The position numbers and the translations under genes are program-made. The notes below the pieces were generated by a model. The model saw only the letters and a program-made list of their open reading frames with translations, ran no database searches and had not been told where the DNA came from. From a virus (lineage: Duplodnaviria; Caudoviricetes), in the IMG/VR virus record IMGVR_UViG_638275558_000001, positions 1 through 64,000 of that record: a stretch of 64,000 nt of DNA; one strand, given 5' to 3'. Shown piece after piece: positions 1-37,779 of this stretch; the stretch's first letter is position 1; each line of letters opens with the position of its first letter.

Positions 1-75
1 CGGGTCTGCTTTTCCTTCACGGACCCAATTCTCCGTGAAAGAAATACGACATTCATACTGCACCTCCTGGTTGGT

Positions 76-285
76 TTAATTAGGGTTAATGTTATACCTT
101 TTCAGGAACTTCGATCGCTTTAACTCCCTCTGATGAAGCACGGTTTCCACCGCGGCAAAAATCACCAGCAGCAGAAACCACGCTCCTATCAGAAGCAGCG
201 CCGTTTCAAAATAAACCCACTTCATCACAAGCCCCGCCAGTACGAAGGCGGGCAAAAAACCTGTTATAACGTAAACAGCGCTCAT
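76..285 (-). CDS. Small membrane protein (two predicted TM helices), early operon
   Basis: Hydrophobic 69-aa ORF 3 nt downstream of 289..714. Confidence 0.7.
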   Translation of the reverse strand: MSAVYVITGFLPAFVLAGLVMKWVYFETALLLIGAWFLLLVIFAAVETVLHQRELKRSKFLKRYNINPN

Positions 286-288
286 GGT

Positions 289-714
289 TCACCCCTGAGT
301 CTGGAGTGCAAAGGCACCTGTAATATCCACCCAACCCTCATGACGAAATACCGTCTTCTTGACCACGGTTCCGTCGGGCTGCTGCTCCTCCACCGACACC
401 CTCTTCGTAAAGGAAAACAGAGGAATGATACAGAAAGCCATCAGAGCATTGACCAGAAACGGCATGAAGTAGGGCGCGCCTCCAATCATGGCGGCACCCA
501 GCAAAATATCCTCCGTCTCCCCACTCTTCTTGAAAAACCCGGCGGCAAGAGCGGCAATCTCCCACGCGCGAGACATCATCTGATCGAAATCAGGAATTTC
601 CTCGAACGTAAGAAGCTCCTTCACCCGATTCCACTGATCATCAGGAAGGTTTACAACCCCCGCCTCCATCTGTTCGGGAGTCGGATTGTGCTGGGTGAGA
701 TTCAGAATCGTCAT
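289..714 (-). CDS. Csx20/Csx15-like protein, putative cyclic-oligoadenylate ring nuclease
   Basis: N-term ILNLTQHxxTPEQ and C-term FTKRVSVEEQQPDGTVVKKTVFRH resemble, from recall, Csx20-family motifs; strong GGAGG RBS. Confidence 0.55.
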   Translation of the reverse strand: MTILNLTQHNPTPEQMEAGVVNLPDDQWNRVKELLTFEEIPDFDQMMSRAWEIAALAAGFFKKSGETEDILLGAAMIGGAPYFMPFLVNALMAFCIIPLFSFTKRVSVEEQQPDGTVVKKTVFRHEGWVDITGAFALQTQG

Positions 715-753
715 GGCTTGTACCTCCGTTTGTTTGTTAAGTGATCCACAGCC

Positions 754-782
754 AGTATACGCATAAAGCGGAAAAAAGTCAA
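754..782 (-). promoter_or_regulatory. Sigma70-type early promoter TTGACT-N17-TATACT
   Basis: Near-consensus -35/-10 with 17-nt spacer, followed by the AACAAACAAACGGAGGT leader of 289..714. Confidence 0.75.
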
Positions 783-1033
783 TCGGTATTTTCTTTCTTC
801 ATCTTAATTTCATTTTTTTCCTTGAGGGAAATATCCGCCGCATACATTTTTTCGGCTTCCTTCAGCACCTCAGAGACTCTGCTGAAGATCTCCCTGAGCT
901 GAACCATTGACCACTCCGGATCGTCAAGCACCAGTGGAAGCGCGTAGCCGTCTTCATACGTTTCATAGTTATCCTCAAACAGATCTTCCAGCAGACGATC
1001 CAGCAGTGCAGGAATTTCATATCGGTAACTCAT
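779..1033 (-). CDS. Hypothetical acidic protein
   Basis: ORF with GGAGGAG RBS. Confidence 0.7.
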   Translation of the reverse strand: MSYRYEIPALLDRLLEDLFEDNYETYEDGYALPLVLDDPEWSMVQLREIFSRVSEVLKEAEKMYAADISLKEKNEIKMKKENTD

Positions 1034-1052
1034 AACTCCTCCGGCGGTTAAC

Positions 1053-1478
1053 TTATCGGTAAACCTTCACGGATGAAGGTCTCATGTGAATGAACACTTT
1101 TGCTCCCGGATACACTTCATCCAGAACCATAAGCGCCACAAGCGAAGCAAGCGTCATGTACACCCCCTGGATACCTCCCACCGTCATATAATCCAGAAAT
1201 CTGATCGTACCCGCCGAAATGGTATCTTCAAGCCCCCCATCCCAGATAAGATATTCCACGATGGAGGGAATCTGAACCCTGATCTTTTCCAGCTCCCGCT
1301 CGATATGGATATGCGGATCCGAACTACGCGCTGCTTCCCTGCAGATACCTTCCGCCAGAACAAGCAACGTTTCATTTCGATTCTGATAAAAATAATTCAG
1401 AGCACCCTCGAACAGCGCTTCAGGATCTGTAGCCGCACGCGGAACGCTTCTGGAAACGTCTTTCAGAATCTGCATCAT
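1053..1478 (-). CDS. Hypothetical protein (start reassigned to ATG 1478)
   Basis: GGAGGTG RBS upstream of ATGATGCAG. Confidence 0.7.
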   Translation of the reverse strand: MMQILKDVSRSVPRAATDPEALFEGALNYFYQNRNETLLVLAEGICREAARSSDPHIHIERELEKIRVQIPSIVEYLIWDGGLEDTISAGTIRFLDYMTVGGIQGVYMTLASLVALMVLDEVYPGAKVFIHMRPSSVKVYR

Positions 1479-1525
1479 GACGCACCTCCATTTTTTCCAA
1501 CATAACCTTCTTATTTCCTTTTCGG

Positions 1526-1554
1526 TTCCACGCAATCCCAATTACCACTATTAA
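1526..1554 (+). repeat. Dispersed ~30-bp motif, copy A (TTCCACGCAATCCCAATTACCACTATTAA)
   Basis: Near-identical to copies at 1639, 37493 (reverse complement) and 54896. Confidence 0.85.
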
Positions 1555-1638
1555 TCTCCATCAAGTCAGAAACCCGAATTCAATTTAAAACTTTTCTGTC
1601 TGAAATTCCCTTATAACCCTTAAAACTTAACACTACCC

Positions 1639-1668
1639 TTTCAACACAATCCCAATCACCAGTAAAAA
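1639..1668 (+). repeat. Dispersed ~30-bp motif, copy B (TTTCAACACAATCCCAATCACCAGTAAAAA)
   Basis: Shares the core ACACAATCCCAATYACCAGTA with the other copies. Confidence 0.8.
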
Positions 1669-1801
1669 CCTACCTGCATTAGATCTACTACTCCCCTTTG
1701 AAGCAAAAAGGAAAAAACCAAAAATCAAAATTCTATAACCCCTACAGGATACGCTCAGCTTTAAGTCGCATATTACCCATTGGGATTTTAGAATTTTAAA
1801 A

Positions 1802-1959
1802 TTTTGTTTTTCTTTAATCTCCATAGGGTACGCTTAGCATTGAGTCTTAATTTACCATTTGAGGGATTTTAATTTAGAAGTTTTTGTTTTTCTTTAATCT
1901 CCATAGGGTACGCTTAGCATTGAGTCTTAATTTACCATTTGAGGGATTTTAATTTAGAA
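1802..1959. repeat. 80-bp-period tandem repeat (2 exact 78-bp copies, plus a degenerate copy at ~1730-1800); candidate replication origin
   Basis: 1802-1879 equals 1882-1959; AT-rich non-coding region upstream of the primase-like gene. Confidence 0.9.
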
Positions 1960-2090
1960 ATTCAAAAATTTAATTTTTTCATAACCTTGAGTGGCTTATT
2001 TACCTGTAGAGCGTCATTCAAAAAACACCCCATTTCAAGAAACCTTCACATTGATCTGTCGTTTTACAACATAAAACCTTTAAGTGGTAT

Positions 2091-3476
2091 ATGATCAGAA
2101 AGCGTAAAAAATCTGAACATATCGGAGCGGATGCGATTCCAAAGGGATTGGTCTATGATGTTTTAAATCTTGGGTATACCGATAAGCTCAAATCCCGCAT
2201 GATTGCTATACTGAGCATTCTTATCTACCATCGCCACCGGGAAGATCACACCTACGAGATTGAAACAGGATCGAAATGCAAGCGCATGGTGGAAGTTAAA
2301 AAAGGGGAGTCCTGGATCAGCATTCCAACGCTTATTGAGCGGGTTTACAACACATTTGGAATTAAGCTTACCAGGGAGCAGGTTAAATATGCCCTTCGTT
2401 TGCTTTTACAGCATGGTCTGATTTCGGTAAAGGAAGCAACCGGTGGGGTTTCGAAAGGTCATTTTGGAAACATTTATACATTCAGAGAAACGGATTTTGA
2501 AGGAGAGTTTGTCGATCCTGTGGATTTTGTGAGGGAAAATAGTGAAAGTGAAGAAGAAATCTGGTATGCAGATTATACGGAAAGTCGGTATTCGAATCGC
2601 GTAACCGTCAGAGAAGGAGCATTTCATCCGATTATGAAAAGTAGGACACTTCTAAAAACGCATGTGCTTAGAAATCATCCAGATAGAGAAAAAGCTACGA
2701 AGTTTTACCCGAAAGAGATTGTTGTGGATATCGAAGCGGGTGGATATCGCGTAGATGAAACAGAGCGGTACAGACGCTTTAGACTCTTCGTGATAAACCG
2801 CGCTGCGAAGTTTGCGAGAAAGTTCAGAGCACGCTACGGGGGGAAAGTTGATATATGTTTTACCGGAGGTAGGGGAATTCATCTGCATATTACGGGAAGT
2901 GTGCTCAATGTTCCAATGAACCGCAGTCAATTCGACAGGATTTTGAAAGAAGCAATTGTTCGTATGCTTAAAGATACGGAACTATGGCGGTTTTTCGATC
3001 CTTCCACGCTGAATCCTTTTCAGCTTGCCGGGGTTCGCGGAAAACTTCATGATAAGGCTCCTTTTGACGACTGGGTGTATGTGAAGCGTACCTATCAAAC
3101 GATTAAGCCGCTCAAAGCCGGAAGTCTGCTTTCGAGTTTTGAGGAGGCGGCTTTCTGGATTTCGCGTAGCTTCGTCAGAAAAGCGGCTAAAGGCAATCCA
3201 TTTAGAACGTACAGTCTGGTAAAGGAAGGGCTACTGGAAGGGGAGCCGTGGAGCGATCACCATGCGGGAAGAGATACGGCTGCTTTCTGCATGGCATGCG
3301 ATCTTCTGGAAGCCGGATACATGACGGATCAGGTGTTGCTGTTTCTGAAAGATTGGGATAAGAAAAACAAACCTTCTCTTGGAGATAAGATTATCGCGCA
3401 GAAGGTAAGATCGGCGCGGCGGCTTCTTGCGCGAAAAGGAAAGCTTAAAGCAAACCCTTCTCTACAGCTTCTCTAA
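2091..3476 (+). CDS. Rep-like protein: N-terminal wHTH + archaeo-eukaryotic primase (AEP) + PriCT domain
   Basis: VVDIE and FTGGRGIHLHI (AEP motifs I/II); C-term GRDTAAFCMACDL...DWDKKNKPSL...VRSAR is PriCT-like. Confidence 0.7.
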   Translation: MIRKRKKSEHIGADAIPKGLVYDVLNLGYTDKLKSRMIAILSILIYHRHREDHTYEIETGSKCKRMVEVKKGESWISIPTLIERVYNTFGIKLTREQVKYALRLLLQHGLISVKEATGGVSKGHFGNIYTFRETDFEGEFVDPVDFVRENSESEEEIWYADYTESRYSNRVTVREGAFHPIMKSRTLLKTHVLRNHPDREKATKFYPKEIVVDIEAGGYRVDETERYRRFRLFVINRAAKFARKFRARYGGKVDICFTGGRGIHLHITGSVLNVPMNRSQFDRILKEAIVRMLKDTELWRFFDPSTLNPFQLAGVRGKLHDKAPFDDWVYVKRTYQTIKPLKAGSLLSSFEEAAFWISRSFVRKAAKGNPFRTYSLVKEGLLEGEPWSDHHAGRDTAAFCMACDLLEAGYMTDQVLLFLKDWDKKNKPSLGDKIIAQKVRSARRLLARKGKLKANPSLQLL

Positions 3477-4395
3477 TTGTTTTGAAAAAGTGATAGAATC
3501 TTTCCGGGGAAAAGCTGTATCCGATCATGTCGGTGATAACGCTCATCACATTGAAAAATCGTTGGACTTCATCCGGATTTCTTCTGTCGATTTTGATAAG
3601 AAGTTCGATTATACGTTTAAACGATTTAGGATAATCGTACCACAGAAAGGAAAGATATGCACCCGACGATCCTTCTTCCTCTTCTTTTTTCATGTAAGAA
3701 CGAATATCTTCATACAGATACCATATATCCACAATGCTTTGAGCGAGTTTCTCCATAATTCTGGTGGCGGTGTTGCTGAACGTATTGATATACTCACAGG
3801 TAACAACATACATATTCTTTTTGATTTCTTCGATAATTTCAACATGAATATTTGTTTCCAGAAGATAAACAGGGAAAGAAATTGAAAGTTTTTCAAGCTG
3901 CACAATTTTATGCAGAAAGGTGTTTTCGCGCACTTCCCAATCCCACAGACATTTCACAGTCAGATATATTTCATTTCTTATAACTTTCTCCAGTTCGACG
4001 AAAATATACGATTTATTTTCTATAAAGCCGGGTAACTCTTCATGAATGATGCGGTTTAAGTTGCTGTGTTTTTTCATACGGGTGTTATCTCTCAGCAATT
4101 TTCTTTTAGCATTTGCCACAAATCTCTGATATCTTTCTTCAAAATCTTCTTTTTTGAATTGGATGTTGGCTTCATTTTGCAATTGTCTGGTTCTTATAGC
4201 AAGCGTCTCAATGAACGTTTTGATTAGAAGTATTGCTCCCTTAGCCATATCCTGAATGGTGGAATCGGCGGGTAAATCCACACGAAAGATTTTTCGAGTT
4301 TCTTCGTTTTTGATCAGTGCGACGTTCCATCCCATTCTCTTTTCCATGAAAAACCTGAGCGCCCAGACCAGATATTCGTAGAAGTTTTCAGTCAT
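3445..4395 (-). CDS. Hypothetical protein, paralog family A, late promoter
   Basis: 316-aa ORF; TATTTAAAATAAAATG start context. Confidence 0.8.
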   Translation of the reverse strand: MTENFYEYLVWALRFFMEKRMGWNVALIKNEETRKIFRVDLPADSTIQDMAKGAILLIKTFIETLAIRTRQLQNEANIQFKKEDFEERYQRFVANAKRKLLRDNTRMKKHSNLNRIIHEELPGFIENKSYIFVELEKVIRNEIYLTVKCLWDWEVRENTFLHKIVQLEKLSISFPVYLLETNIHVEIIEEIKKNMYVVTCEYINTFSNTATRIMEKLAQSIVDIWYLYEDIRSYMKKEEEEGSSGAYLSFLWYDYPKSFKRIIELLIKIDRRNPDEVQRFFNVMSVITDMIGYSFSPERFYHFFKTIREAVEKGLL

Positions 4396-4413
4396 TTTAT
4401 TTTAAATATTCCC

Positions 4414-5055
4414 TTATCTGTATTCCACTTCCGGAGATTCTATATGGATGTAAAGTATATTTTTTCGTGGTATAAAATTCATCTGAGCGTGCACCGCAAT
4501 TTTCAGGTCGTTCTCGCTCAAATGATGCTCGCCCCACCTGAACGATCCGATAAACTGCAGCGTGATATGGTGCGTGATCAAATCCGTAGAAAACTCCAGC
4601 TTATCATCTGTTTCGGGTGGAAGCACATCGGTAGAGGGAAACCGGGATTTCACATCAAGACGTGCAAGCACCAGATAATGATGGTAATTCTCGACGTTTG
4701 ATGCCGGTGATATGTTTTTGAGTTTGTCGTTTAATGTGCGGATTACTTCTTTCATTTCCTTTTCGATGGTGGTATCCTCTGATTCTTTTCTGGAGAAAAT
4801 GTTTTTATAAGAGGGTCCTTTTTTGATATGTTCTACCGGGGAAATGGCTTTAAGCAGTCTGTAGGCATAATGCAACGTGTCGTTTATCATCTTTATGAAT
4901 TTTCTGATCGCAACGCTTACAGGTGTATCCTCAGAGATGCTCAGGTAGACCAGATCGGGGTGTTTTCTCAAATGATAATCAGGTGGAGAGAAGCCGGGAT
5001 ATTTTTCCAGATAGTTTTTGATGGTGTTTGTAAGCAGTTCCTGATACGATGGCAT
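4414..5055 (-). CDS. Hypothetical protein, paralog family A, late promoter
   Basis: 213-aa ORF; TATTTAAAATAAAATG start context. Confidence 0.8.
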   Translation of the reverse strand: MPSYQELLTNTIKNYLEKYPGFSPPDYHLRKHPDLVYLSISEDTPVSVAIRKFIKMINDTLHYAYRLLKAISPVEHIKKGPSYKNIFSRKESEDTTIEKEMKEVIRTLNDKLKNISPASNVENYHHYLVLARLDVKSRFPSTDVLPPETDDKLEFSTDLITHHITLQFIGSFRWGEHHLSENDLKIAVHAQMNFIPRKNILYIHIESPEVEYR

Positions 5056-5056
5056 T

Positions 5057-5984
5057 TTATTTTAAATAAGTGTTGATAAACAAACAGGCTTTTTTCACAT
5101 ATTCGAACAATTCATCTTTGGAAAGATGGTGTGGTTTGTACTGACGATGCATAAACTTATAAGCAATATCAAACAATACCCTACCCTTTTCCTCACTTTC
5201 TTTAATAATATCTATAATGCTGTCTATTTCCTCTTTCAGTTCTCTGTAAATGGTTCGGTATCGGTTTATGTCCTGCTCTGTCAGGTGTTCACTATTTTCA
5301 TATTTTATCCCGAATACAGACATAATACCTATTGTTCCTCCGATAAATTCCAGTGTTCCATTCCGGGTAGAGGCGCTTACAAATGAGTTGCGAATCTTCA
5401 ATGTTTTATCTGAAACGAAACTTTTAAAACTTAAGTCAAGGAGCATTTCTGTAACAAACAGAGGAGCATTCAGGTGGAAAATTTTTGCAAATTTTGAATT
5501 TTCTCGGGGAAACCATTTAACAAAACCGATTATCATTATACCAAGATGAGCTTCCTTTGCAAAAACCGGCATAATGTAAAGATGAATTTCGTTTCGAAAT
5601 TCTATTTCGTCTGTGAAGTGGGTGATTAATTTTTTATCGATATTATTGTAGTGTATAGTATCGTCTTTAAGTTCTTTCATTTTTTTCTGAAGTTTCTTTA
5701 ATGCCTGTTGAAACTTCTCCTCAATTTGATCTACAGCTATTTTTTCAACTCCGATATCTTCTTCGAAGTGTCTGATTTTGGTAAGTGATAGTTCTATAGT
5801 CTTTTTAAGCGTATGAACATACATCCGCGTAAAATCTCTGGGTAACTGCTTTTCGGCGGGAATAAGACGCACTTTTACATAAGAAGGTCGTTTCTCTATA
5901 ATTTCTACACTGGAAAATTCCGATCTTTTTTTTAAAATATTCAATGATGTTCATTGCAAGTAGTGCTTCAACAACGCCTTCCAT
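5057..5984 (-). CDS. Hypothetical protein, paralog family A; likely start at 5984 with a frameshift in an A8 run (5926-5933)
   Basis: MEGVVEALLAMNIIEYFKK joins RSEFSSVE... if one A is removed. Confidence 0.6.
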
Positions 5985-6064
5985 AGTTTTTTTAGCTAAG
6001 GTTTTTTGTTTACAGTTTTGTAGTTTTCGTTAATTAAGGTGTTTAATGCTATTGGTTTTTTTAA

Positions 6065-6949
6065 CTATTCCCCACGAACTATCTGTTTCAATACACGATA
6101 TCTTTCCACCATATCGAGGTTTATAATATCCAGCGCTCTACCTATTTCATCAAACATTTCGATCACGCGTTCATCCTGATTGTTTTTGCTGTGTTCGATA
6201 AGGTTTCTGAGTTCAAAAGCTCCCCGTATACCACTGGAATACAGAAATGCGATTTTTGGAATATCAGGGTGTCCGGGATTAATAAGAGATAGAAAATGTT
6301 CAATGTTTTTTATGAGTTCATGAAGGCGATTATACTGCATGTTGAAATAAGCGTGGGCTTTTGTCAGCCTGATGTTTTCTTCTATCATGGGGCGCACGTA
6401 AAAACTCCCATGCAGAGCGGTTCCGATATTGGTAAAAACTGTCTCGTGAAACAGAATAGCGGAAAGTGCGGCGTTTTTAACCGGATAGAGAGAACTTGCA
6501 CCAATAACCGATATATCAAACAGAGCAGGAAAAAACTCGAAAAGACTCTGATCATTAAAGAAAATATGCATTTCGTTTTTTCGATATACCAGATCAGGGT
6601 ATTTATGTGTGGTGTTAAATATTTTCTGTATTTTCTGAACCGTTTCTTTCTCCTTATTTATTTTTTCTTTAAACTTCTCAATAGCCTGCTGGTACTTATC
6701 ATTTATTTTGCTGTCTACAGAAAACCCGGAATAAATGGTTCGTGTCTTTTTTATAAAAAACTCGATCAGTTCTTTGAACATGCGCGGCGTTTCTTTTATA
6801 ATCTCTTTTGCGGTTGCGTTTTCACCGATGTCAAGGATTATGGTTACATGTTTATCGCCGGCGTCTATGTTTACCGGATACTTTTTTTGAAATCTGTAAT
6901 ACTGCTGAATTGCACTTAAAATCTCTTTACGGTATTTTTTCGGAGTCAT
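6065..6949 (-). CDS. Hypothetical protein, paralog family A
   Basis: 294-aa ORF; N-terminal pattern similar to its neighbours. Confidence 0.8.
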   Translation of the reverse strand: MTPKKYRKEILSAIQQYYRFQKKYPVNIDAGDKHVTIILDIGENATAKEIIKETPRMFKELIEFFIKKTRTIYSGFSVDSKINDKYQQAIEKFKEKINKEKETVQKIQKIFNTTHKYPDLVYRKNEMHIFFNDQSLFEFFPALFDISVIGASSLYPVKNAALSAILFHETVFTNIGTALHGSFYVRPMIEENIRLTKAHAYFNMQYNRLHELIKNIEHFLSLINPGHPDIPKIAFLYSSGIRGAFELRNLIEHSKNNQDERVIEMFDEIGRALDIINLDMVERYRVLKQIVRGE

Positions 6950-7002
6950 AAGGTGTCGGGTTTGATTTTATTAAATCACTCAGGTTTTTAAGTCGTGCAT
7001 GT

Positions 7003-7845
7003 TTAACCCAGTTTTTTAACCACCCTGTTATTCCACCATATGACTTTTCCATCTGATCTTACGATTCCTCCGTATCCCATGCGGCTCAGGATCTCATTGA
7101 TTTTTCCGTTTTGAGGAACGTTGAGTGCACCAAAATAGAGTTCAGTAAGTTGCTTCATAAAACGGTTTCTATCCTGATTCAGATCTTCTTCTATCATCAT
7201 CTGAATGCGGGTTGGAAATGTATCTACGATCAGGTTTACGACGTAGACTCTATCGCTGGCTTCCCATCTTGAAAGGAAAAAGGAATCATATCGAAGCAAC
7301 CGGTCAAACGTTTCGTCAACGACGGTTTTGACAAATGTCGCAAGTTTTCGGGTGAAAACGGCTCCGGTTTGCTCGAAAGTGATAAGCAACCCTTTGAAAA
7401 GCATTTTTCGGAGTGCGGAGAGGCTGTAGGGAACGTCAAAATGAATTCCCCTTTCGACGAATCCATATGGCGGCTTTCCAAATACCCCCTGAAGTTTCAT
7501 TCGGTGAAGTTCCCAGCCGCTTCCAAGAAATTCGTCAATCTGAAGTTTTTTAAGTTTTTTGAGATCGGAGGAGTTAAGGTGCACGCCGAAATAGTTAAGT
7601 GCGCCCCCGGTGGACGCGAAAAGGGGGAGGTTGTAAAAATCTTTTGGATAATCGTTTTCCTTTTTGACGTTGAGAAATTCCTCCGGCTCGATGATATAGT
7701 AGAGGTGATACCCGCGCTCCAAGATTTCCCGAAGGGTTTTTTCGTTTAACGGGATTTCGCTCATAAGGAGTCCGTTTCCCTCCACAGAAGACACAATCAG
7801 GTTTGAGGGATCAAGCGTTTCGATTTTTTCAAGGAGCTCTTTCAT
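7003..7845 (-). CDS. Hypothetical protein
   Basis: 280-aa ORF coupled (4-nt overlap) to the gp25-like gene. Confidence 0.75.
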   Translation of the reverse strand: MKELLEKIETLDPSNLIVSSVEGNGLLMSEIPLNEKTLREILERGYHLYYIIEPEEFLNVKKENDYPKDFYNLPLFASTGGALNYFGVHLNSSDLKKLKKLQIDEFLGSGWELHRMKLQGVFGKPPYGFVERGIHFDVPYSLSALRKMLFKGLLITFEQTGAVFTRKLATFVKTVVDETFDRLLRYDSFFLSRWEASDRVYVVNLIVDTFPTRIQMMIEEDLNQDRNRFMKQLTELYFGALNVPQNGKINEILSRMGYGGIVRSDGKVIWWNNRVVKKLG

Positions 7846-8211: not shown

Positions 8212-9168
8212 ATGAAAAGACTGAGGAATATGGTCAATCTTATCGATCTCAAAAATCAGTATTATGCTTACTCTTTCAAGTTTTTCGACTCCTATCAGAT
8301 CAGCTGGGATAATTACCCGCATCTTAAAGAGTTCGTCATTGAAAACTATCCCGGCACTTATTTTTCATGCTACGCTCCGGGGATTCTGTACAAGCTTTTC
8401 CTCAAATGGAAGCGGGGTATGATCATTGACGACTATGACCGACACCCGCTCCGAAAGAAGTTACTTCCTCAGTACAAAGAGCACCGCTATGAATACATTG
8501 AGGGAAAATACGGTGTGGTTCCTTTCCCCGGGTTTCTGAAATATCTGAAGTTCCACTTTGAGGACTTGCGGTTTAAAATGCGCGATCTTGGAATCACCGA
8601 TTTCAAATATGCACTTGCCATTTCTCTTTTTTACAACCGGGTAATGCTCAGAGATTTTCTGAAAAACTTTACCTGTTATTACATTGCCGAATATGAAGCT
8701 GACGATGTAATCGCACATCTGGCGCGTGAGATTGCACGAAGCAATATCGACGTAAACATCGTCTCAACGGATAAAGATTATTACCAGCTATGGGATGAAG
8801 AGGATATAAGAGAAAGGGTTTATATCAATTCTCTTTCATGTAGTGATGTGAAGACACCCCGCTACGGATTTCTTACCATTAAAGCACTTCTTGGAGACAA
8901 AAGCGATAACATTCCCAAATCTCTGGAAAAAGGAAAAGGCGAAAAGTATCTTGAAAAGAAAGGATTTGCGGAGGAAGATTACGATAAGGAACTATTCGAG
9001 AATAATCTGAAGGTGATCAGGTTTGGAGACGAATATCTTGGAGAAAGGGATAAAAGCTTTATAGAAAATTTTTCTACGGGGGATACTCTGTGGAACTTTT
9101 ATGAATTTTTTTACTATGACCCTTTGCATGAACTTTTCCTCAGAAATATAAGAAAGAGGAGACTATGA
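8212..9168 (+). CDS. 5'-3' exonuclease / T4 RNase H-like flap nuclease
   Basis: EADDVIA, STDKDYYQL and LLGDKSDNIP motifs. Confidence 0.9.
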   Translation: MKRLRNMVNLIDLKNQYYAYSFKFFDSYQISWDNYPHLKEFVIENYPGTYFSCYAPGILYKLFLKWKRGMIIDDYDRHPLRKKLLPQYKEHRYEYIEGKYGVVPFPGFLKYLKFHFEDLRFKMRDLGITDFKYALAISLFYNRVMLRDFLKNFTCYYIAEYEADDVIAHLAREIARSNIDVNIVSTDKDYYQLWDEEDIRERVYINSLSCSDVKTPRYGFLTIKALLGDKSDNIPKSLEKGKGEKYLEKKGFAEEDYDKELFENNLKVIRFGDEYLGERDKSFIENFSTGDTLWNFYEFFYYDPLHELFLRNIRKRRL

Positions 9169-10619
9169 AAGTACTCGCATTTACCGATGCACCTACGTTT
9201 CCCACGGGGGTGGGTCATCAGCTTCACAACATTATCAATTACGGGTTTGACGCAACCGATCGCTGGGTTGTGGTGCACCCGCCCCGGTCGCCAAGGGCTG
9301 GAGAGACTAAAAACGTCGTTATTGGAAACACTCCAGTCAAGCTTATCAATTCTCCGCGAGGATATGCGGATGATCCGGCGTTTGTGATGAAGGTGGTGGA
9401 AGATGAAAAGCCGGATGTGCTTGTAATTTTTACCGATCCGTGGGCTTACCACCCCTTTATGCAACAACTTTCTTACTGGATTATCGAGCGGAATCTCCCG
9501 CTGGTATATTATCATGTGTGGGATAATTTTCCGGCTCCTCTGTACAACATCCCCTTCTGGCACACCTGCAATGAAGTGATAGGAATTTCGATGAAATCGA
9601 CGATCAACGTGCAGCTTGCGAAGGAGTATGTGGAGGCGTATGAAATCACCATGTATCGCGATCCGGAGGTATTCTATCTTCCGCATGCGGTCGAACCCAA
9701 TGTATTCAAACGCATGGATCGCAAGAAAGCACGTGAATTTGTGCGGGGACTTGTCGGAGATAGGATGTTTGATGACAGCGTGATCTGGCTTTACAACAAT
9801 CGAAATATTTCACGCAAGAATCTGATGGATACCATTTATGCTTTTCTGGTATACATGCTCAAAAACTACAGGAAACATCACCTTTTGATTATAAAGTCTG
9901 ACCCGGTTGTACCGGTGGGAACGGATATTCCCGCGTTTCTTGCCGATATTAATTCGTTTTTCCACTACCGGGATATTGACCTTCGGGAACACATTGTTTT
10001 CATTTCCAATGACGAAGTATTTCACAACGGCGGATTTTCAAGGGAGGAAATCGCATTGCTTTATAACGGCGCCGATGTGGTGCTGCAGCTTTCATCTAAT
10101 GAGGGGTTCGGGATCGCTTCGCTTGAGGCGTCGCTGTGTGGAGCCCCGGTGGTTGCTACTATGACGGGTGGTATTGCAGATCAGTACTCCCTCTACGAAA
10201 TGGATTATGAGGTGGCGGATGGAAGTGATGAAGATATAATCTGCAAGATTTATGAGGAAGTGCACCGTCAGGTGCTCAATCAGTATCTCGATATGCTCCG
10301 TCAAAACGGAAAGGATCCGGAAAGCGCTCCCCGCAAAAATCATATGATGCGGATGGTGAAACCTTATCGTCATTATCAGGGATCGCCGGCTACTCCCTAC
10401 ATTCTTGACGACAGGGTTCCTATCCGGGACGTATTCCCGAAGTTCGATGAAGCGCTGGCGCTGAGGAATCGTGAGGATTACGAAAAACTTTATGAAGAAT
10501 CGGTTGAGTACATCACCATGCACTTCGATGTAGAGGTGCTCGGAAAAGAGTTCAAGAAATCCCTTAGCCGTGCCATTAAGAATAACCAGAAAACCACAAG
10601 ACAGGTTGTCGTGCTATGA
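9165..10619 (+). CDS. Glycosyltransferase, GT-B/GT4 family
   Basis: TDAPTFPTGVG, NRNISRKN, LYNGADV, NEGFGIASLEA motifs. Confidence 0.9.
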   Translation: MKVLAFTDAPTFPTGVGHQLHNIINYGFDATDRWVVVHPPRSPRAGETKNVVIGNTPVKLINSPRGYADDPAFVMKVVEDEKPDVLVIFTDPWAYHPFMQQLSYWIIERNLPLVYYHVWDNFPAPLYNIPFWHTCNEVIGISMKSTINVQLAKEYVEAYEITMYRDPEVFYLPHAVEPNVFKRMDRKKAREFVRGLVGDRMFDDSVIWLYNNRNISRKNLMDTIYAFLVYMLKNYRKHHLLIIKSDPVVPVGTDIPAFLADINSFFHYRDIDLREHIVFISNDEVFHNGGFSREEIALLYNGADVVLQLSSNEGFGIASLEASLCGAPVVATMTGGIADQYSLYEMDYEVADGSDEDIICKIYEEVHRQVLNQYLDMLRQNGKDPESAPRKNHMMRMVKPYRHYQGSPATPYILDDRVPIRDVFPKFDEALALRNREDYEKLYEESVEYITMHFDVEVLGKEFKKSLSRAIKNNQKTTRQVVVL

Positions 10620-11893
10620 AGAAGAAAGTGCTTCTTGTTTCGCCGCTTCGTTCCGTTAGCGGCTATGGAACCGTAAGTCGCGGAATTTATCGCATTCTGA
10701 AGCGAATGGAAAAAGAGGGGTTGATCGATTTTGATGTGATGGTATTGCGGTGGGGTACGTTTTCGGAAACCACCCACCTTGATGATGAAATCAAGAAGAG
10801 AATTCAGGAGAAGTATGATCAGGTGTACGATGTTGCGATCATGGTTTCTTCTCCCTACGACTATCGCTACTGGAACAACATCTTCAGAGCGAAACACCTG
10901 CTCTTTTTCAATGCGATGGTGGAAACGAAACCGTTCCATCCGAATCTGTTCCAGCAGCTTTTCAACTTCATGCTTCAGGTTCCCACCGCGCACCTTGTGT
11001 TTCCTTCTTCCGAAATCAAGAGGATCTGGGAAGAAATCATCAATTCCCAACCCATCCATCCGGCAATGGGTGCTGCAGTGCTCTCCCGCATTCATGTAGT
11101 ACCCAACCCGGTAGATGAAGTTTACTATACTTCGAACTTCGGGAATAAAAACGTTCGTAAAAATGTGATCGGCGCGATTCGAAAGAAGATTGAGGAAATC
11201 CGTCGATCCTATGAACTGGAGCGGGTGTTTCTGACTTTTGCGCCTATGGGAGTAGATCGAAAGAACACCAGGGTTTTACCCGAACTTATCGAAATGGTGG
11301 GGCGGGTTGGAATTCTGGCGCTGGCGGGCGGAACAAATTCTTTTATACTTTACGACTTTCAGCGGCTTATCTGGATGGAAGGTGAGAAAGCCTATAAGCG
11401 GCTTCCGCTTCACCGATCGATCGACGTTACCCCGGAAGAGCTTATGTTCGTTTTTGGATCGCTGACGGTGGAAGAGCTGAGTGCGGTGATGGATATGGTG
11501 GATGGTGGAATCAACCTTTCGCATGGAGAATCGTGGGATTACCTGTTGCACAACATGATGCTACTGGGCAAACCCTGTCTTTACGTCGACTTCTTCCGTC
11601 GGGATTATATCCCTTCGGAGCTTCGTGATGTGCTGGGGGTGGATTTCAATATGGTACCCCTCCCGAAGGTGGTTCCCAACATTCCGCACGATCATCCGTT
11701 CTTCCACCCGCAAACGATGGTGGCGGAACCCAATTTGCAGGATGCAGCGGAAAAGCTCGACTGGGTGTTGCGGAACTACGGTGAAGTCTCAAAGATGATT
11801 ACCAGCCATAGAGACGCTTTCAAAACCGACGATACGATCTATGAATTTCTGGTTGACGCACTGGAGTCGATCGAAGAACCACAGGCGGCATAA
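10616..11893 (+). CDS. Glycosyltransferase, GT-B/GT4-like
   Basis: SGYGTVSR, DRKN and SHGESWD (E-x7 region) motifs. Confidence 0.8.
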   Translation: MKKKVLLVSPLRSVSGYGTVSRGIYRILKRMEKEGLIDFDVMVLRWGTFSETTHLDDEIKKRIQEKYDQVYDVAIMVSSPYDYRYWNNIFRAKHLLFFNAMVETKPFHPNLFQQLFNFMLQVPTAHLVFPSSEIKRIWEEIINSQPIHPAMGAAVLSRIHVVPNPVDEVYYTSNFGNKNVRKNVIGAIRKKIEEIRRSYELERVFLTFAPMGVDRKNTRVLPELIEMVGRVGILALAGGTNSFILYDFQRLIWMEGEKAYKRLPLHRSIDVTPEELMFVFGSLTVEELSAVMDMVDGGINLSHGESWDYLLHNMMLLGKPCLYVDFFRRDYIPSELRDVLGVDFNMVPLPKVVPNIPHDHPFFHPQTMVAEPNLQDAAEKLDWVLRNYGEVSKMITSHRDAFKTDDTIYEFLVDALESIEEPQAA

Positions 11894-15760: not shown

Positions 15761-15784
15761 CCCAAACCTAAACCCGAAAAATAT

Positions 15785-17035
15785 ATGGAAACGATTGTAA
15801 TTTCCCAAAACAATACGACGGAGATGACGGAACCCCCCCAGAACATTTCCGATTCGGTTAAAAGCGGGTTTATCTATCTTATCGAAAAGTCTCATTTCCT
15901 TGAAAAGAAAAACTTCCTTAAAATCATATCGAACATGGACCCCCGCCGCATTTCCAATCCGGAGGTGCGCGTGGTGGCGGAGTACATATATGATTATTTC
16001 AAAAGTCATAGTAATTTCCCTTCTAAAAGAAATCTTTGCCATCACTTTGAGTGGAGCGAAGATCTGGAAGGAGACCCCGCCGATTATCAGCGTATCATTC
16101 AGTATCTCAAATCTTCTTACATTCGATCCTCTATAACAAAAACGCTTTCATATCTTGAGAAGGATGACCTTTCCGCGTTGAAAGAAATTGTCAGAGCCAT
16201 TCGGGTGGTGGAGGATAGTGGGGTGTCGCTGGTGGAGGAATTCGATCTTGCAACCAGCGAGTTTAATGAACTTTTTGTTAAAGAAGAACGCATTCCCACC
16301 CCCTGGGAGAGTGTAAACAAAAATATGGCGGGCGGTCTTGGTCGGGGAGAGCTTGGAATCGTTATGCTTCCTTCGGGGTGGGGTAAGTCATGGTTCCTTG
16401 TTTCACTTGGTCTTCATGCCTTTCGAACGGGTAAGCGCGTGATTTATTTCACTCTGGAGCTTGACCAAAAATATGTGATGAAGCGGTTTTTAAAGATGTT
16501 TGCACCTTATTGCAAAGGACGCGCTTCTTCCTATCGCGACGTTTATCAAATAATGAAAGAGCTTATGTTTTCTCAGGATAATCTTTTGAAGATTGTTTTC
16601 TGTAATGCGATGGAAGATATTGAGCACTATATTGCGCTGTATAACCCCGACGTTGTGCTGATTGACTATGCCGATCTTATTTATGATGTGGAAACCGACA
16701 AAGAGAAAAATTATCTGCTTTTGCAAAAAATTTATAGGAAACTTCGTCTCATTGCAAAGGTATATAATACAGCAGTATGGAGCGCCTCTCAGCTTAATCG
16801 CGGTTCCCTTTCAAAGCAAGCCGACGTCGATTTCATTGAGAAATACATTGCCGATTCATTTGCAAAAGTTGTTGAAATCGACTTCGGGATGGCGTTTATT
16901 CCGGATAGCGAGAACTCAACCCCCGATATTCACGTCGGATTCGGTAAAATCTTCAAAAACCGTATGGGTGCGGTAAGAAAGCTGGAATATACAATTAACT
17001 TTGAAAACTATACGGTAGACGTTGCTGTTAAATGA
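15785..17035 (+). CDS. Replicative helicase, DnaB/gp41-like
   Basis: Walker A PSGWGKS, FTLE, IDYAD, SASQLNR, KNRMG. Confidence 0.9.
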   Translation: METIVISQNNTTEMTEPPQNISDSVKSGFIYLIEKSHFLEKKNFLKIISNMDPRRISNPEVRVVAEYIYDYFKSHSNFPSKRNLCHHFEWSEDLEGDPADYQRIIQYLKSSYIRSSITKTLSYLEKDDLSALKEIVRAIRVVEDSGVSLVEEFDLATSEFNELFVKEERIPTPWESVNKNMAGGLGRGELGIVMLPSGWGKSWFLVSLGLHAFRTGKRVIYFTLELDQKYVMKRFLKMFAPYCKGRASSYRDVYQIMKELMFSQDNLLKIVFCNAMEDIEHYIALYNPDVVLIDYADLIYDVETDKEKNYLLLQKIYRKLRLIAKVYNTAVWSASQLNRGSLSKQADVDFIEKYIADSFAKVVEIDFGMAFIPDSENSTPDIHVGFGKIFKNRMGAVRKLEYTINFENYTVDVAVK

Positions 17036-20274: not shown

Positions 20275-21240
20275 TTATCTATACGACACATACTTGATAA
20301 AATTGCCGCTTTCTCCCATTTCAAAATATTTTCTGAGCGTAGAAGGAGTAAAATCCGTGGCGTCTCCAAGCTTTCGAGTGGGGGTGATCAGTGTTGCGTT
20401 GATTTTGACATAGTGGCTTTTGATCATTTTGTTGTGGGGGAAAAGCAGGTTGTAAAGCGCCATCTGGTTTACGTCGTTCAAAAGATGTTCATGCCAGAGA
20501 ATATCGTAAGTGCGGGTAAGCAGCGCAAGAAGATTGGTGTAGTAGTTCCGTTCTTCCTTAATGGTGTAAAGCGGCGTGCAGGAAATGATGATCGCTTGAA
20601 TTTCCTCACCCGGCTTTAATTCTTTAAGTTTAATAAGGTTTTCAATGGTAAACCCAAGCGGAATCACTTCTCTTACCCCACCGTCTACATAGGTGTTGTC
20701 TCCGATTTTAACCGGAGGAAAGACCAGCGGAATGCTACAAGAAGCAAGAATGGATTTGAGAAGAAGTTCCTCTTTTTGCTCTTCCGGGATTTCCTGATCT
20801 TCAAAAAGGTAGTTACCGTCTTTTACAACGATTCCGGTGGATTTGCCGTTTTGCAAATTCACAGAACAATTGATATAGATTTTATTGAAATTCAGAAGCG
20901 GGAGCACGTTTTTCTCAAGGTATTTCCCAAGAGGGGAAAAATCATACAGATAATTTCGTTTGAGAATAAGTGTTTTGAGAAGGGCAAACCACTCAGGCTG
21001 CTGTTTGTAAACCTGTTTCGGGGAAAGAGAAAGCCACATTTGCTTCATGAGATCGGTACCTTTCGGGGTAAGCGCCGCGCGGGAAGCACACCACACGCCG
21101 TTGATACTTCCCACCGAAGTTCCGGCTACAGCAAGAATTTCGTTGTCTTTAAGCGCTCCTTCCCTCACCAGACAGGAAATGACGCCCGCCTGAAAAGCAC
21201 CTTTGGCTCCTCCCCCCGACAGGATCAGCAGTTTTTTCAT
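20275..21240 (-). CDS. Patatin-like phospholipase
   Basis: LSGGGAKG, GTSVG (catalytic Ser) and YVDGG (catalytic Asp). Confidence 0.9.
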   Translation of the reverse strand: MKKLLILSGGGAKGAFQAGVISCLVREGALKDNEILAVAGTSVGSINGVWCASRAALTPKGTDLMKQMWLSLSPKQVYKQQPEWFALLKTLILKRNYLYDFSPLGKYLEKNVLPLLNFNKIYINCSVNLQNGKSTGIVVKDGNYLFEDQEIPEEQKEELLLKSILASCSIPLVFPPVKIGDNTYVDGGVREVIPLGFTIENLIKLKELKPGEEIQAIIISCTPLYTIKEERNYYTNLLALLTRTYDILWHEHLLNDVNQMALYNLLFPHNKMIKSHYVKINATLITPTRKLGDATDFTPSTLRKYFEMGESGNFIKYVSYR

Positions 21241-21995: not shown

Positions 21996-23045
21996 TTACT
22001 CAGGTATTTTTTTGAACATTGTATTAATGGTGTCGATTTTCTTGATGTAATCAACGAATTTGACACCAAGTTTTCCTGTAACATTTCCGATAAGAATATT
22101 GGAAGCGTTCAATGCCAGTGCGGGAGTCAGATTTGAAAGTCTTGCAATTTCAAACAGCGTCGGGAGAATATGGTTTTTATTTTCGATTTCTTCCATCAAA
22201 ATGGCGTCTACGGCGTTGTATTCCACCAACTTTTTATCCGGGTAGACAGGAATCTCATGATAGAATCTTACGTCGAAATCCACCTTACCTTCTCCTATTT
22301 CCTCTCGCGCAATATAGTCGAGCCGGTAGGACTCCAACTCTTTGTATGCCACAAAGGAGCGATAAAGCCGCATGTAATCAAAAAACACAAATTCTACAGG
22401 GGTACGGGGATTGAAATAGAATGGTAGGTTTCGATCGGAAATTTTCCGCACCAGCTTCCAGTCCGGAAGCAACTTATCACTAATGACATTCACCTCATGG
22501 ATATGACTACGAATGAGCAGGTAGGGATAATCGAACTGATAACCGTTCCATGCGAGCATGAAAGTAAATTTTGGTTTCAGCACATTCCAGAAATACTCGA
22601 GCAATCTTTTTTCCGAAAGGAATGTTCTGTAATGAATTTCAAATGTGTTATCCCCTACGCTGGTGGTAAATTTGTTAAAGTTATCGATATGAGCCTCCGG
22701 GTTGGTGATAAGGAGAAGCACTACCACCACCGGTTTTCCATACGGTTTGATGGAAATGGAATAAACTGGGTCTCTCCACGGGTCGGGAAAGCTTTTTTTC
22801 GGGGAAATCGTCTCAATATCGATAAAGACGCACTGAGACAAAGCTTCCGGCGTGATGTGGCTTTTTTGTTCTCTGATGTAATAGGATATAGCCTCAGCCT
22901 CAATCTTCCCTCGATTCTGCTGAGCGATGCGCTTCAAATGTGGGGGTACGGGTGATTGAAATAAGTGTTTTTTCCCCTCGATTAGCTCCACTCCGTAAAT
23001 TTTCATCGATCGGGGGTATACGCTTGCGCTTAGCGTGATCTTCAT
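21996..23045 (-). CDS. Stand-alone 3'-5' exonuclease subunit of a split family-B DNA polymerase
   Basis: ExoI IDIET, ExoII WNGYQFDYPYL, SYRLDYIA, ExoIII YNAVD; no polymerase domain follows. Confidence 0.9.
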   Translation of the reverse strand: MKITLSASVYPRSMKIYGVELIEGKKHLFQSPVPPHLKRIAQQNRGKIEAEAISYYIREQKSHITPEALSQCVFIDIETISPKKSFPDPWRDPVYSISIKPYGKPVVVVLLLITNPEAHIDNFNKFTTSVGDNTFEIHYRTFLSEKRLLEYFWNVLKPKFTFMLAWNGYQFDYPYLLIRSHIHEVNVISDKLLPDWKLVRKISDRNLPFYFNPRTPVEFVFFDYMRLYRSFVAYKELESYRLDYIAREEIGEGKVDFDVRFYHEIPVYPDKKLVEYNAVDAILMEEIENKNHILPTLFEIARLSNLTPALALNASNILIGNVTGKLGVKFVDYIKKIDTINTMFKKIPE

Positions 23046-37705: not shown

Positions 37706-37779
37706 GCGCCTGTAGCTCAACCGGAAAGAGCACCAGCCTTCTAAGCTGGTGGTTGTGGGTTCGAGTCCCACCGGGCGCT
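37706..37779 (+). tRNA. tRNA-Arg(UCU)
   Basis: Acceptor GCGCCTG/CGGGCGC, anticodon arm CCAGC-CTTCTAA-GCTGG, T-loop GTTCGAG; CCA not encoded. Confidence 0.95.

What the first reader, a model, noticed from the sequence alone, without database searches (positions are those of the whole stretch)
289..782. Candidate anti-CRISPR ring nuclease (Csx20/Csx15-like) as first gene behind a strong early promoter
Seen: a 141-aa ORF sits directly downstream of TTGACT-N17-TATACT, an AC-rich leader and GGAGG. From recall: Csx20 proteins of type III CRISPR loci have an N-terminal H-x-x-T-x-E-Q and a C-terminal T-K-R-x-S-x-E...DG-x-V-x-K...F-x-H, and have been reported to degrade cA4. This protein has QHNPTPEQ and TKRVSVEEQQPDGTVVKKTVFRH. 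Inference: a phage-borne cOA-degrading or cOA-sequestering anti-type III factor distinct from AcrIII-1.
Basis: partly seen in the sequence, partly recalled or inferred. Interest (0 to 1): 0.8.

Follow-up and report, generated by a model that had tools for sequence, protein, structure and literature searches.

The report
Phage-borne Csx20-like ring nuclease gene
A small gene at the left end of a large T4-like phage genome encodes a diverged relative of Csx20, an enzyme that destroys the cyclic signal molecules of type III CRISPR defence, so it is probably a phage counter-defence gene of a kind already proposed in print but not yet tested.

Summary
Window 289-714 (minus strand) is a 141-aa ORF behind TTGACT-N17-TATACT and GGAGG, and it carries the quoted motifs. 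It is not the first gene of its strand.

- The protein matches NCBIfam CAS_Csx20 at E 8e-8, which is below the curated cut-off.
- A profile-profile comparison with bona fide Csx20 gives 97.7% probability.
- It carries the precomputed Pfam label PF27247 (MJ1673).

It belongs to a large, well separated clade found mostly on mobile elements:
- at least 1,846 clusters at 50% identity;
- 184 IMG/VR stretches;
- 133 plasmid records.

The record is a complete 129,908-bp T4-like phage. I found its likely host lineage, genomes G078 and G083. Both share a 92-99% identical IS element with the phage and hold CRISPR spacers against it, one of them 38/38. Each has two GGDD-bearing Cas10 genes. In G078, the one annotated, these are a III-A and a III-B locus with CARF-domain ancillary genes.

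Best reading (0.6): a homodimeric, CARF-like binder and cleaver of cyclic oligoadenylate that blunts the host's type III signalling. Activity, specificity and timing are untested.

Phage Csx20 homologues are already reported as candidate anti-CRISPRs, so this is a new member of a known kind.

The parts
289..714 (-). 141-aa ORF: diverged Csx20 / MJ1673-family (PF27247) CARF-like protein, putative ring nuclease
   Evidence: ORF. NF040559 E 8.2e-8, 32.7 bits. PF27247.1 precomputed for the identical protein P0001, named MJ1673. hhalign against true Csx20 gives 97.7%. AF2 model pLDDT 92.3.
754..782 (-). sigma-70-like promoter motif TTGACT-N17-TATACT; the -35 overlaps the stop codon of the upstream ORF
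   Evidence: 10 of 12 matches; sequence; background frequency.
723..727 (-). Shine-Dalgarno GGAGG, 8 nt before the ATG
   Evidence: Read from the sequence.
779..1033 (-). upstream same-strand 84-aa acidic ORF (pI 4.4), no family; shows that the Csx20-like gene is not the first gene
76..285 (-). downstream 69-aa hydrophobic ORF (GRAVY 0.87), start 4 nt after the stop of the Csx20-like gene; not conserved with it in relatives
   Evidence: In 3 laid runs the contigs diverge below about position 320.

Best explanation
The gene encodes a phage version of the Csx20-type ring nuclease. This is a small CARF-like alpha/beta protein that most likely works as a homodimer. The two subunits would together form a pocket for a cyclic oligoadenylate (most likely cA4, perhaps also cA3), built from three elements: the loop after strand 1 (T7-Q8-H9...T12...Q15), the glycine loop after the central strand (G78-G79-A80-P81), and the C-terminal beta-hairpin (R105, K119, F123, H125). 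The pocket would cleave the ligand, or at least sequester it.

Made during infection, the protein would remove the second messenger produced by the host's Cas10 complexes. The host's CARF-domain ancillary effectors would then stay inactive.

Shown here: homology to Csx20, the phage setting, and a host lineage that targets this phage with CRISPR spacers and carries cyclase-competent type III-A and III-B systems with CARF proteins. Inferred: dimerisation, ligand, catalysis, timing of expression and the anti-defence effect.
For: 1. Homology.
- NF040559 matches at E 8.2e-8 over nearly the whole profile.
- 38 of 39 relatives hit it, best E 5.8e-12.
- hhalign against bona fide Csx20 gives 97.7%, E 1.4e-12.
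- All 120 listed homologues, including the window's own protein, carry PF27247, which is the MJ1673 family.
- Csx20 cleaves cA4, and cA3 at high enzyme concentration (PMC12409355, passages).

2. Shared polar residues. H9, T12, Q15, R105 and H125 are invariant or nearly so in the clade. They align with invariant H10, Q16, R101, H121 and near-invariant T13 of Csx20.

3. Fold.
- The confident monomer model lists CARF/SAVED chains among its best second-look rows: Cam1-cA6 Z 6.2 with 109 aligned, Cap5 6.1, Crn1 Sso2081 4.3.
- Natural tandem-duplicated relatives exist.
- A model of one of them (pLDDT 84.4, pTM 0.67) has SAVED domains as its top 7 of 48,161 chains, Z 7.7-7.1 with 180-205 residues aligned across both halves. 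A viral SAVED ring nuclease scores Z 6.6. This supports a two-unit ligand site.

4. Link to type III signalling inside this clade. In L040 the domain (146 bits to the clade profile) is the C-terminus of a WYL-WCX protein. That protein lies next to type III RAMP and Cas10 genes.

5. Mobile-element habit.
- 184 confirmed stretches in IMG/VR.
- 133 plasmid records, 76 of them conjugative.
- Atlas clusters are 60-82% viral.
- Viral and cellular rows are intermixed on the tree.

6. Host.
- G078 and G083 share the phage's IS/TnpB at 92-99% nucleotide identity.
- G078 has a 38/38 spacer against window 11370-11407.
- G083 has two further spacers, 97% of 35 nt and 89% of 36 nt.
- G078 encodes a III-A module (Csm1 408 bits, Csm3-5) and a III-B module (Cmr2 296 bits, Cmr3-6).
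- Both Cas10s carry GGDD.
- Ancillary proteins in G078 are a Csm6-family protein, a Csx14-like CARF protein, a TIGR02619 CARF protein and a small Csx20-like protein.
Against: - The score is below the curated Csx20 cut-off (32.7 against 70 bits).
- The clade is separated from Csx20 by a long branch of 3.3 changes per column. Cross-profile scores are only 0.4-34 bits.
- The central motif differs (MIGGAPYF against QGDFGAT), and the Csx20 C-terminal RFRKY is absent.
- Structural matches are middling. Foldseek found nothing at E <= 1e-3, the best monomer Z is 6.4 and goes to racemases, and the tandem Z values are under 8.
- No Aca-like HTH or RHH neighbour and no conserved partner gene were found.
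- 24 of 36 cellular genomes that carry a clade member showed no Cas10-palm match. Many carriers are Enterobacterales plasmids. The clade's target therefore need not be type III.
- The host's Csm6-family effector might respond to cA6, which Csx20 did not cleave (PMC12409355, passages).
- No assay of activity exists, and no evidence of transcription or timing.
- BLASTP against the host's own small Csx20-like protein finds nothing.
Confidence: 0.6

Rival explanations
1. It is a sponge rather than an enzyme. The dimer binds the cyclic oligoadenylate tightly and sequesters it without turnover.
For: Sponge proteins are a known phage strategy. The related Csx15 was first discussed as a possible sponge (PMC12409355, passages). 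The clade differs from Csx20 in the central motif and the C-terminus, which could have removed catalysis while keeping binding.
Against: The polar residues shared with the active enzyme Csx20 (H9, T12, Q15, R105, H125) are invariant or nearly so across 39 diverse members. This is what one expects of a conserved active site. No stoichiometric argument, such as evidence of very high expression, is available.
Confidence: 0.12
2. It acts on a different or broader set of nucleotide signals than type III cA4, for example cA3 or other CBASS-type or still unknown messengers. Type III CRISPR would then be only one of its targets, or not a target at all.
For: - The clade occurs on 133 plasmid records, mostly from Citrobacter, Providencia and Klebsiella. 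In two of them, Rts1 and pECTOK-001_1, it sits beside ssb-recT-exo.
- 24 of 36 cellular carriers gave no Cas10-palm match, among them the small (0.6-1.6 Mb) genomes behind the Patescibacteria-group loci, where 13 loci share a TrmB-type neighbour.
- Csx20 itself cleaves cA3 at high concentration (PMC12409355, passages).
- The tandem relative's best structural matches are CBASS and CRISPR SAVED sensors alike.
Against: For this particular phage the host lineage has two cyclase-competent type III systems and spacers against the phage. One clade member is fused inside a type III locus. I did not search the host for CBASS. MAGs are incomplete, so missing Cas10 is weak evidence.
Confidence: 0.13
3. 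It is not a counter-defence gene. It would be a small nucleotide-binding or regulatory protein serving the phage's own replication or metabolism, or a domesticated housekeeping function as perhaps in the Patescibacteria chromosomes.
For: No anti-defence neighbours or Aca were found. The surrounding ORFs are all of unknown function. Chromosomal copies lie beside TrmB, RNase Y, ClpP and trigger factor genes in 13 loci.
Against: The protein is a bare sensor-type domain without any output domain. Its only characterised relatives are ring nucleases. Its distribution across unrelated phages and plasmids, with variable neighbours, is typical of accessory counter-defence genes.
Confidence: 0.1

Closest known systems
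Csx20 (NCBIfam NF040559; CRISPR-associated cA4 ring nuclease; Hoikkala et al. 2025, PMC12409355)
   Same: Homologous over the whole length. Similar size, about 125-140 aa. Both have the N-terminal H-x-x-T-x-x-Q after strand 1, a glycine loop, [ST]-x-R, D-G and F-x-H in the C-terminal hairpin. Both are also found fused to larger CRISPR-locus proteins: Csx1-Csx20 in L157 and WYL-WCX plus clade domain in L040.
   Different: The score is 32.7 bits against a cut-off of 70, while true Csx20 proteins score 142-171 bits. It falls in a separate clade on the tree. The central motif is MIGGAPYF rather than QGDFGAT, and there is no RFRKY tail. It is encoded on a phage, not in a CRISPR locus. Its activity is untested.
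Phage and MGE csx20 homologues already in print (4 of 28,114 phage genomes, PMC12409355; csx20-aca14 operons, PMC13551039)
   Same: The proposal is the same: a cas ring nuclease co-opted by mobile elements for counter-defence. My tblastn found the clade in Pasteurella phage Pm86. Pasteurella multocida is the species of the published csx20-aca14 operon.
   Different: No RHH or HTH Aca gene lies beside this copy. I could not see the papers' supplementary lists (paper reading closed), so I cannot say whether this phage or this clade is among their hits.
AcrIII-1 / Crn2 (DUF1874 viral ring nuclease)
   Same: It has the same proposed role: a small, dimeric, phage-encoded enzyme that removes cA4 to defeat type III CRISPR (role as described in PMC12409355, passages).
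   Different: It is an unrelated family. No DUF1874 match appeared at E <= 10. The model is a CARF/SAVED-like Rossmann-type fold.
Viral SAVED ring nuclease (PDB 9r8s; PMC12751052, search listing only) and SAVED/CARF sensors
   Same: The tandem-duplicated relative of this family aligns to SAVED domains over both halves, Z 7.7-6.6. It points to the same logic of a two-unit cyclic-oligonucleotide pocket.
   Different: The window protein is a single unit that would need to dimerise. Sequence identity to SAVED chains is 6-11%. Z values are below 8.

Membership tests
Csx20 (NCBIfam NF040559, equivalog) | Whole-protein score at or above the curated cut-off of 70 bits | tested here: not met
   32.7 bits, E 8.2e-8. 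True Csx20 proteins score 142-171 bits.
Csx20 (NCBIfam NF040559, equivalog) | Full-length homology with bona fide Csx20 | tested here: met
   hhalign of A1 against A2 gives 97.7%, E 1.4e-12, 109 columns. The match covers profile positions 2-119 of 124.
Csx20 (NCBIfam NF040559, equivalog) | Conserved polar residues (His, Arg and others) thought compatible with ring nuclease function | tested here: met
   H9, T12, Q15, R105 and H125 are conserved in the clade and aligned to invariant H10, Q16, R101, H121 and near-invariant T13 of Csx20. Which residues are catalytic has not been shown in the texts I read.
Csx20 (NCBIfam NF040559, equivalog) | Encoded in or beside a type III CRISPR-Cas locus | tested here: not met
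   The gene lies in a T4-like phage record. Among 36 cellular carriers of the clade, only L040/G065 has it on a contig with Cas10.
Csx20 (NCBIfam NF040559, equivalog) | Cleaves cA4 to linear products | not testable with these tools
   Needs a biochemical assay.
Pfam PF27247 (MJ1673 family, Pfam 38.1) | Match to the family model | tested here: met
   Precomputed label PF27247.1 on P0001, which is 100% identical to the window protein, and on all 120 listed homologues. The name comes from the Atlas. The local Pfam copy lacks this model, so I could not rerun it.
CARF/SAVED-like fold | Rossmann-like core resembling CARF or SAVED units | tested here: inconclusive
   Monomer: Foldseek found nothing at E <= 1e-3. 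VIA best Z is 6.4, to racemases, with SAVED/CARF rows at 5.5-4.5. Second look: Cam1 6.2, Cap5 6.1, Crn1 4.3.
CARF/SAVED-like fold | Two units arranged as in a SAVED pseudo-dimer or CARF dimer | tested here: inconclusive
   For a tandem relative (not the window protein), the top 7 of 48,161 chains are all SAVED, Z 7.7-7.1 with 180-205 residues aligned. Z is under 8 and pTM is 0.67. Dimer prediction for the window protein was not available.
AcrIII-1 / Crn2 (DUF1874) | DUF1874 domain | tested here: not met
   No such match at E <= 10 in Pfam.
acr-aca type anti-CRISPR operon | Adjacent HTH or RHH regulator (Aca) gene | tested here: not met
   Neighbours 76-285, 779-1033 and 1053-1541 have no Pfam, PHROG or NCBIfam regulator match. 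Very small or novel regulators could be missed.

The most novel reading that the evidence does not exclude
The mobile-element clade to which this gene belongs is not just 'Csx20 on a few phages'. It would be one of the largest anti-signalling families of phages and plasmids. It has at least 1,846 clusters at 50% identity, against 4 phage hits reported with Csx20 profiles. Its reach would go beyond type III CRISPR. Its presence on conjugative Enterobacterales plasmids beside ssb-recT-exo, and in Patescibacteria genomes without detectable Cas10, suggests that members degrade or sequester other cyclic oligonucleotides as well, such as cA3 or CBASS-type signals. The tandem-duplicated forms would be a SAVED-like offshoot.
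Probability: 0.25. Interest if true: 0.7.

Novelty: new member of a known kind. Interest (0 to 1): 0.45.

Why it matters
Few families are known to subvert type III CRISPR, and only some of them have been tested. This gene offers a compact candidate from a phage whose likely host lineage is in hand. That host has spacers against the phage, two cyclase-competent type III systems and several CARF proteins, so attack and counter-attack can be reconstituted with matched parts.

The likely thermophilic setting should favour biochemistry and structure work. That setting is inferred from the closest named TnpB relatives and from laid compost and hot-spring contigs.

The size and spread of the clade also suggest that surveys using Csx20 profiles undercount mobile-element ring nucleases.

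Tried and rejected
- Local Pfam and PHROGs gave nothing for the protein, because the relevant Pfam model is newer than the local copy.
- A sequence search of PDB chains with the family profile gave 0 hits at E <= 10.
- Foldseek against PDB gave no hit at E <= 1e-3. BFVD gave only three uncharacterised viral proteins.
- Pfam on 39 fused or long relatives gave only DUF4116 in one, so fusions are uninformative apart from tandem duplication.
- Supplements of PMC12409355 could not be read because paper reading closed. Its table of phage-encoded ring nucleases may bear on novelty.
- Cas10 in G052 seemed to lie on the contig of L015 by its number, but it is a different 16-kb contig.
- No terminal repeat or overlap was found between the two ends of the record. 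A further ORF starting near position 55 runs off the left end.
- Expression. All runs are kept as contigs. One soil RNA-library run (X20) has short, diverged pieces over 320-378 and 452-499. That does not show transcription of this gene.
- BLASTP of the phage protein against the host's 130-aa Csx20-like protein found no alignment, so a recent capture from this host locus is rejected.
- The window's neighbours (9 ORFs) have no BLASTP match among 1,568 neighbour ORFs of 136 related loci, so there is no conserved operon.
- Papers: 'PF27247' occurs in 0 papers and 'MJ1673' in 1. A listing for ring nuclease + anti-CRISPR + phage since 2024 (64 papers, 25 listed, titles and abstract starts only) showed no title on a characterised phage Csx20-type Acr.

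Full report
THE OBSERVATION

Window 289..714 on the minus strand is an ATG-started ORF of 141 aa. Upstream on the same strand lie TTGACT (782..777), a 17-nt spacer and TATACT (759..754). This is a 10-of-12 match and the only promoter-like site that the scan reports in 1..2200. An A/C-rich leader follows, then GGAGG (727..723) 8 nt before the ATG. The quoted peptide motifs are present at residues 8-15 and 103-125.

Matches of this quality are not rare. I counted 36 in the window on both strands, against 19.6 +/- 4.1 in 30 Markov shuffles. The motif therefore gains weight only from its placement, which has about a 1% chance for a given 70-nt slot (my arithmetic).

The gene is not the first of its transcription unit by position:
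- ORFs 779..1033 and 1053..1541 precede it on the same strand;
- the stop codon of the first of these lies inside the -35 hexamer;
- no terminator-like site intervenes.

WHAT THE REPLICON IS

The window is bases 1-64000 of a 129,908-bp virus record, rated complete and linear. It encodes:
- a T4-type portal, a large terminase, a tail sheath and a baseplate protein;
- a family-B polymerase exonuclease domain, Rad52, a DnaB-like helicase and thymidine kinase;
- a patatin-like lipase and a TnpB.

Its portal is only 33% identical to the nearest cultured phage. The gene lies at the very left end of the record. A further ORF starting near position 55 runs off that end, and I found no terminal overlap.

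WHAT THE PROTEIN IS

The local Pfam and PHROGs copies give nothing. NCBIfam CAS_Csx20 (NF040559) matches at E 8.2e-8 and 32.7 bits, over profile positions 2-119 of 124. That is below the 70-bit cut-off.

A search of 5.8 billion proteins returned 130 relatives. All 120 listed, including the identical P0001, carry PF27247.1. The Atlas names this the MJ1673 family of Pfam 38.1.

Thirty-nine relatives align with strong motifs: NLTQHxxTxxQ, LTF, MIGGAPYFM, F[ST]xRxS, PDG, K and FxH. Of these, 38 hit NF040559.

I collected bona fide Csx20 proteins from 26 of 40 genomes of one bacterial class, scoring 142-171 bits, and aligned ten. The profile-profile comparison gives 97.7% probability, E 1.4e-12, over 109 columns. 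It pairs H9/T12/Q15, the glycine loop, R105, D114-G115 and F123/H125 with the Csx20 counterparts.

The two groups are nevertheless well apart:
- cross-profile scores are 0.4-34 bits;
- on a tree of 107 rows the ten Csx20 rows sit across a branch of 3.3 changes per column (SH-aLRT 93, quick method).

FOLD

The AlphaFold2 model is confident (pLDDT 92.3, pTM 0.84). It has a short strand 1, helices, a central strand followed by the glycine loop, and a long C-terminal beta-hairpin.
- Foldseek finds nothing significant in the PDB.
- The exhaustive aligner gives a best Z of 6.4, to racemase-type Rossmann-like domains, with SAVED and CARF chains at Z 5.5-4.5.
- The second look lists Cam1 with cA6 (Z 6.2, 109 aligned), Cap5 (6.1), Cam1 with cA4 (5.9) and the ring nucleases Sso2081 and Sis0811 (4.3).

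Alone this is inconclusive.

The representative library shows natural tandem duplications of the domain. A model of one (pLDDT 84.4, pTM 0.67) picks SAVED domains as its seven best matches among 48,161 chains. These score Z 7.7-7.1 with 180-205 residues aligned over both halves. A viral SAVED ring nuclease scores Z 6.6. That fits a two-unit nucleotide pocket, and hence a homodimer for the single-domain phage protein.

DISTRIBUTION AND CONTEXT OF THE CLADE

The clade profile finds 2,656 clusters at 50% identity with E <= 1e-3, 1,846 at <= 1e-10 and 952 at <= 1e-30. The true Csx20 proteins I tested would score E >= 0.003 at that database size. The 1,846 therefore belong to this clade.

Where it occurs:
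- IMG/VR holds 184 confirmed stretches.
- One genome per species holds 57 loci, many in Patescibacteria-group MAGs.
- PLSDB holds 133 records, 76 of them conjugative. In the two I opened, Rts1 (IncT) and a related MOBH/MPF_F E. coli plasmid, the gene follows ssb-recT-exo.
- Cultured phages hold only 2 of 50,697 records.

I examined 1,568 neighbour ORFs of 136 loci. No neighbour family recurs widely and none of the recurrent ones is a Cas protein. Phage terminases, SNF2, ParB-HTH, NinG and YqaJ recur in viral loci. A TrmB-type regulator, RNase Y, ClpP and trigger factor recur in 13 small-genome loci.

Among 36 cellular carriers, 8 have a strong Cas10-palm match. Only one, G065/L040, has it on the same contig as the clade member. 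There the domain is the C-terminus of a 580-aa WYL-WCX protein, next to type III RAMP and Cas10 genes. On the tree that domain nests among viral rows. Viral and cellular rows are intermixed generally (17 and 19 label changes).

THE LIKELY HOST

The phage's TnpB has its closest named relatives in Rhodocaloribacter litoris (77%) and Salinibacter ruber (61%). Among 401 genomes of the phylum of G050, G083 and G078 hold copies at 90-95% protein identity and 92-99% nucleotide identity.

Spacers against the phage:
- G078 has a CRISPR array of at least 30 repeats. One spacer is identical, 38 of 38, to window 11370-11407.
- A second G078 array, beside a I-B/III-B locus, has a 30-of-34 match to 38440-38473.
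- G083 has two spacers in a 50-repeat array: 97% of 35 nt to 59381-59415 and 89% of 36 nt to 22749-22784.

Each genome has two Cas10 genes. G078 encodes:
- a III-A module (Csm1 408 bits, Csm3, Csm4, Csm5) with a Csx14-like CARF protein, a HEPN-like fragment, a 130-aa weak Csx20-like protein and a Csm6-family protein;
- a III-B module (Cmr2 296 bits, Cmr3-6) with a TIGR02619 CARF protein.

Both Cas10s keep GGDD. The phage therefore meets cyclic-oligoadenylate signalling in this lineage. The phage protein is not a recent copy of the host's small Csx20-like protein, since BLASTP finds no alignment.

Relatives of the region occur in laid compost and hot-spring metagenome contigs. One example is a contig spanning 1-785 with 35 differences and 9 gaps.

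MECHANISM AND RIVALS

The best-supported reading is a homodimeric, CARF-like ring nuclease, or at least a binder, for cA4 and possibly cA3, which removes the type III second messenger (confidence 0.6).

Rivals:
- a non-catalytic sponge (0.12);
- a broader or different signal target, suggested by the plasmid and Cas10-less carriers (0.13);
- a role that is not counter-defence (0.10).

Nothing here measures activity, specificity, oligomeric state, transcription or timing.

COMPARISON WITH WHAT IS KNOWN

Csx20 is a confirmed cA4 ring nuclease. It was reported in four of 28,114 phage genomes (PMC12409355, abstract and passages read). csx20 homologues in Aca14-regulated operons were proposed as co-opted counter-defence genes (PMC13551039, passages read). 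Crn4 and a viral SAVED protein extend the list of mobile-element ring nucleases (PMC12830947, passages read; PMC12751052, listing only).

The present gene is thus a new member of a known kind. It fails the curated Csx20 threshold but belongs to the wider MJ1673 family.

- the size and separation of the mobile-element clade;
- its tandem, SAVED-like forms;
- a type III-linked fusion;
- a matched phage-host pair.

I could not read the supplementary tables of these papers, so prior listing of this phage or clade cannot be excluded.

Noticed in passing
window 11370-11407 (also 38440-38473, 22749-22784, 59381-59415): Protospacers matched by CRISPR spacers of genomes G078 (38/38 and 30/34) and G083 (97% of 35 nt, 89% of 36 nt). 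Each lies exactly between array repeats. This points to the phage's host lineage.
   Followed up: yes
window 44466-45708: An IS605-type TnpB that seems split over two frames (ORFs 44466-45017 and 44821-45708), whereas homologues are about 388 aa. The element is 92-99% identical in DNA to copies in G078 and G083, one of which sits inside the host's III-A locus region (L175 14724-15869).
   Followed up: partly
L175 (G078:C1:1698001-1718000) 15763-16648: In the host III-A locus a HEPN-like fragment (R-N-D-I-N-H) is followed by a 130-aa protein with a weak Csx20 match (E 3.6e-7). On the tree this protein forms a very long branch, and its family is unsettled (Csx16- or Csx20-like).
   Followed up: partly
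L040 8645-10384: A 580-aa protein with WYL and WCX domains and a C-terminal domain of the phage-type Csx20-like clade. It lies beside type III RAMP and Cas10 genes in a Synergistaceae MAG. It may be a signal-degrading or signal-sensing regulator.
   Followed up: partly
L164 6989-7369 (plasmid Rts1) and L165 6995-7375: Distant clade members (27-31% identity) on IncT/MOBH conjugative plasmids of Enterobacterales. They lie directly after ssb, recT and lambda-exonuclease genes and before MoxR, DUF3150 and VWA genes. In all, 133 plasmid records carry a member.
   Followed up: partly
L014, L018, L037, L039 and other Patescibacteria-group loci: Thirteen cellular loci share a TrmB-type regulator about 1.7 kb upstream of the clade member. 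RNase Y, ClpP or trigger factor lie nearby. The genomes of this kind that I searched had no Cas10-palm match. The role there is unexplained.
   Followed up: partly
P0121-P0139 (representative library); L005 180-1072; L110 3901-6390: Tandem-duplicated or triplicated forms of the domain occur in one polypeptide, some with one degenerate half. Loci also occur with two separate copies.
   Followed up: partly
window 3445-7845 (minus strand): A run of five ORFs of 213-316 aa without any family match. The ORFs at 5057-5944 and 6065-6949 are weak paralogues (26% over 131 aa).
   Followed up: no
window 9165-10619 and 20275-21240: A GT4 glycosyltransferase that also matches the 'GT4 in conflict systems' model, and a patatin-like phospholipase. 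Both are unusual cargo for a T4-like phage and are possible counter-defence or host-takeover genes.
   Followed up: no
window 37706-37780: A phage tRNA-Arg(TCT), 83% identical to a host tRNA region in G078 and G083.
   Followed up: no
window about 320: Contigs of three metagenome runs diverge from the window below about position 320. Relatives therefore carry a different C-terminal tail of the protein and a different downstream gene. Close homologues P0004-P0010 end in an acidic tail instead.
   Followed up: partly
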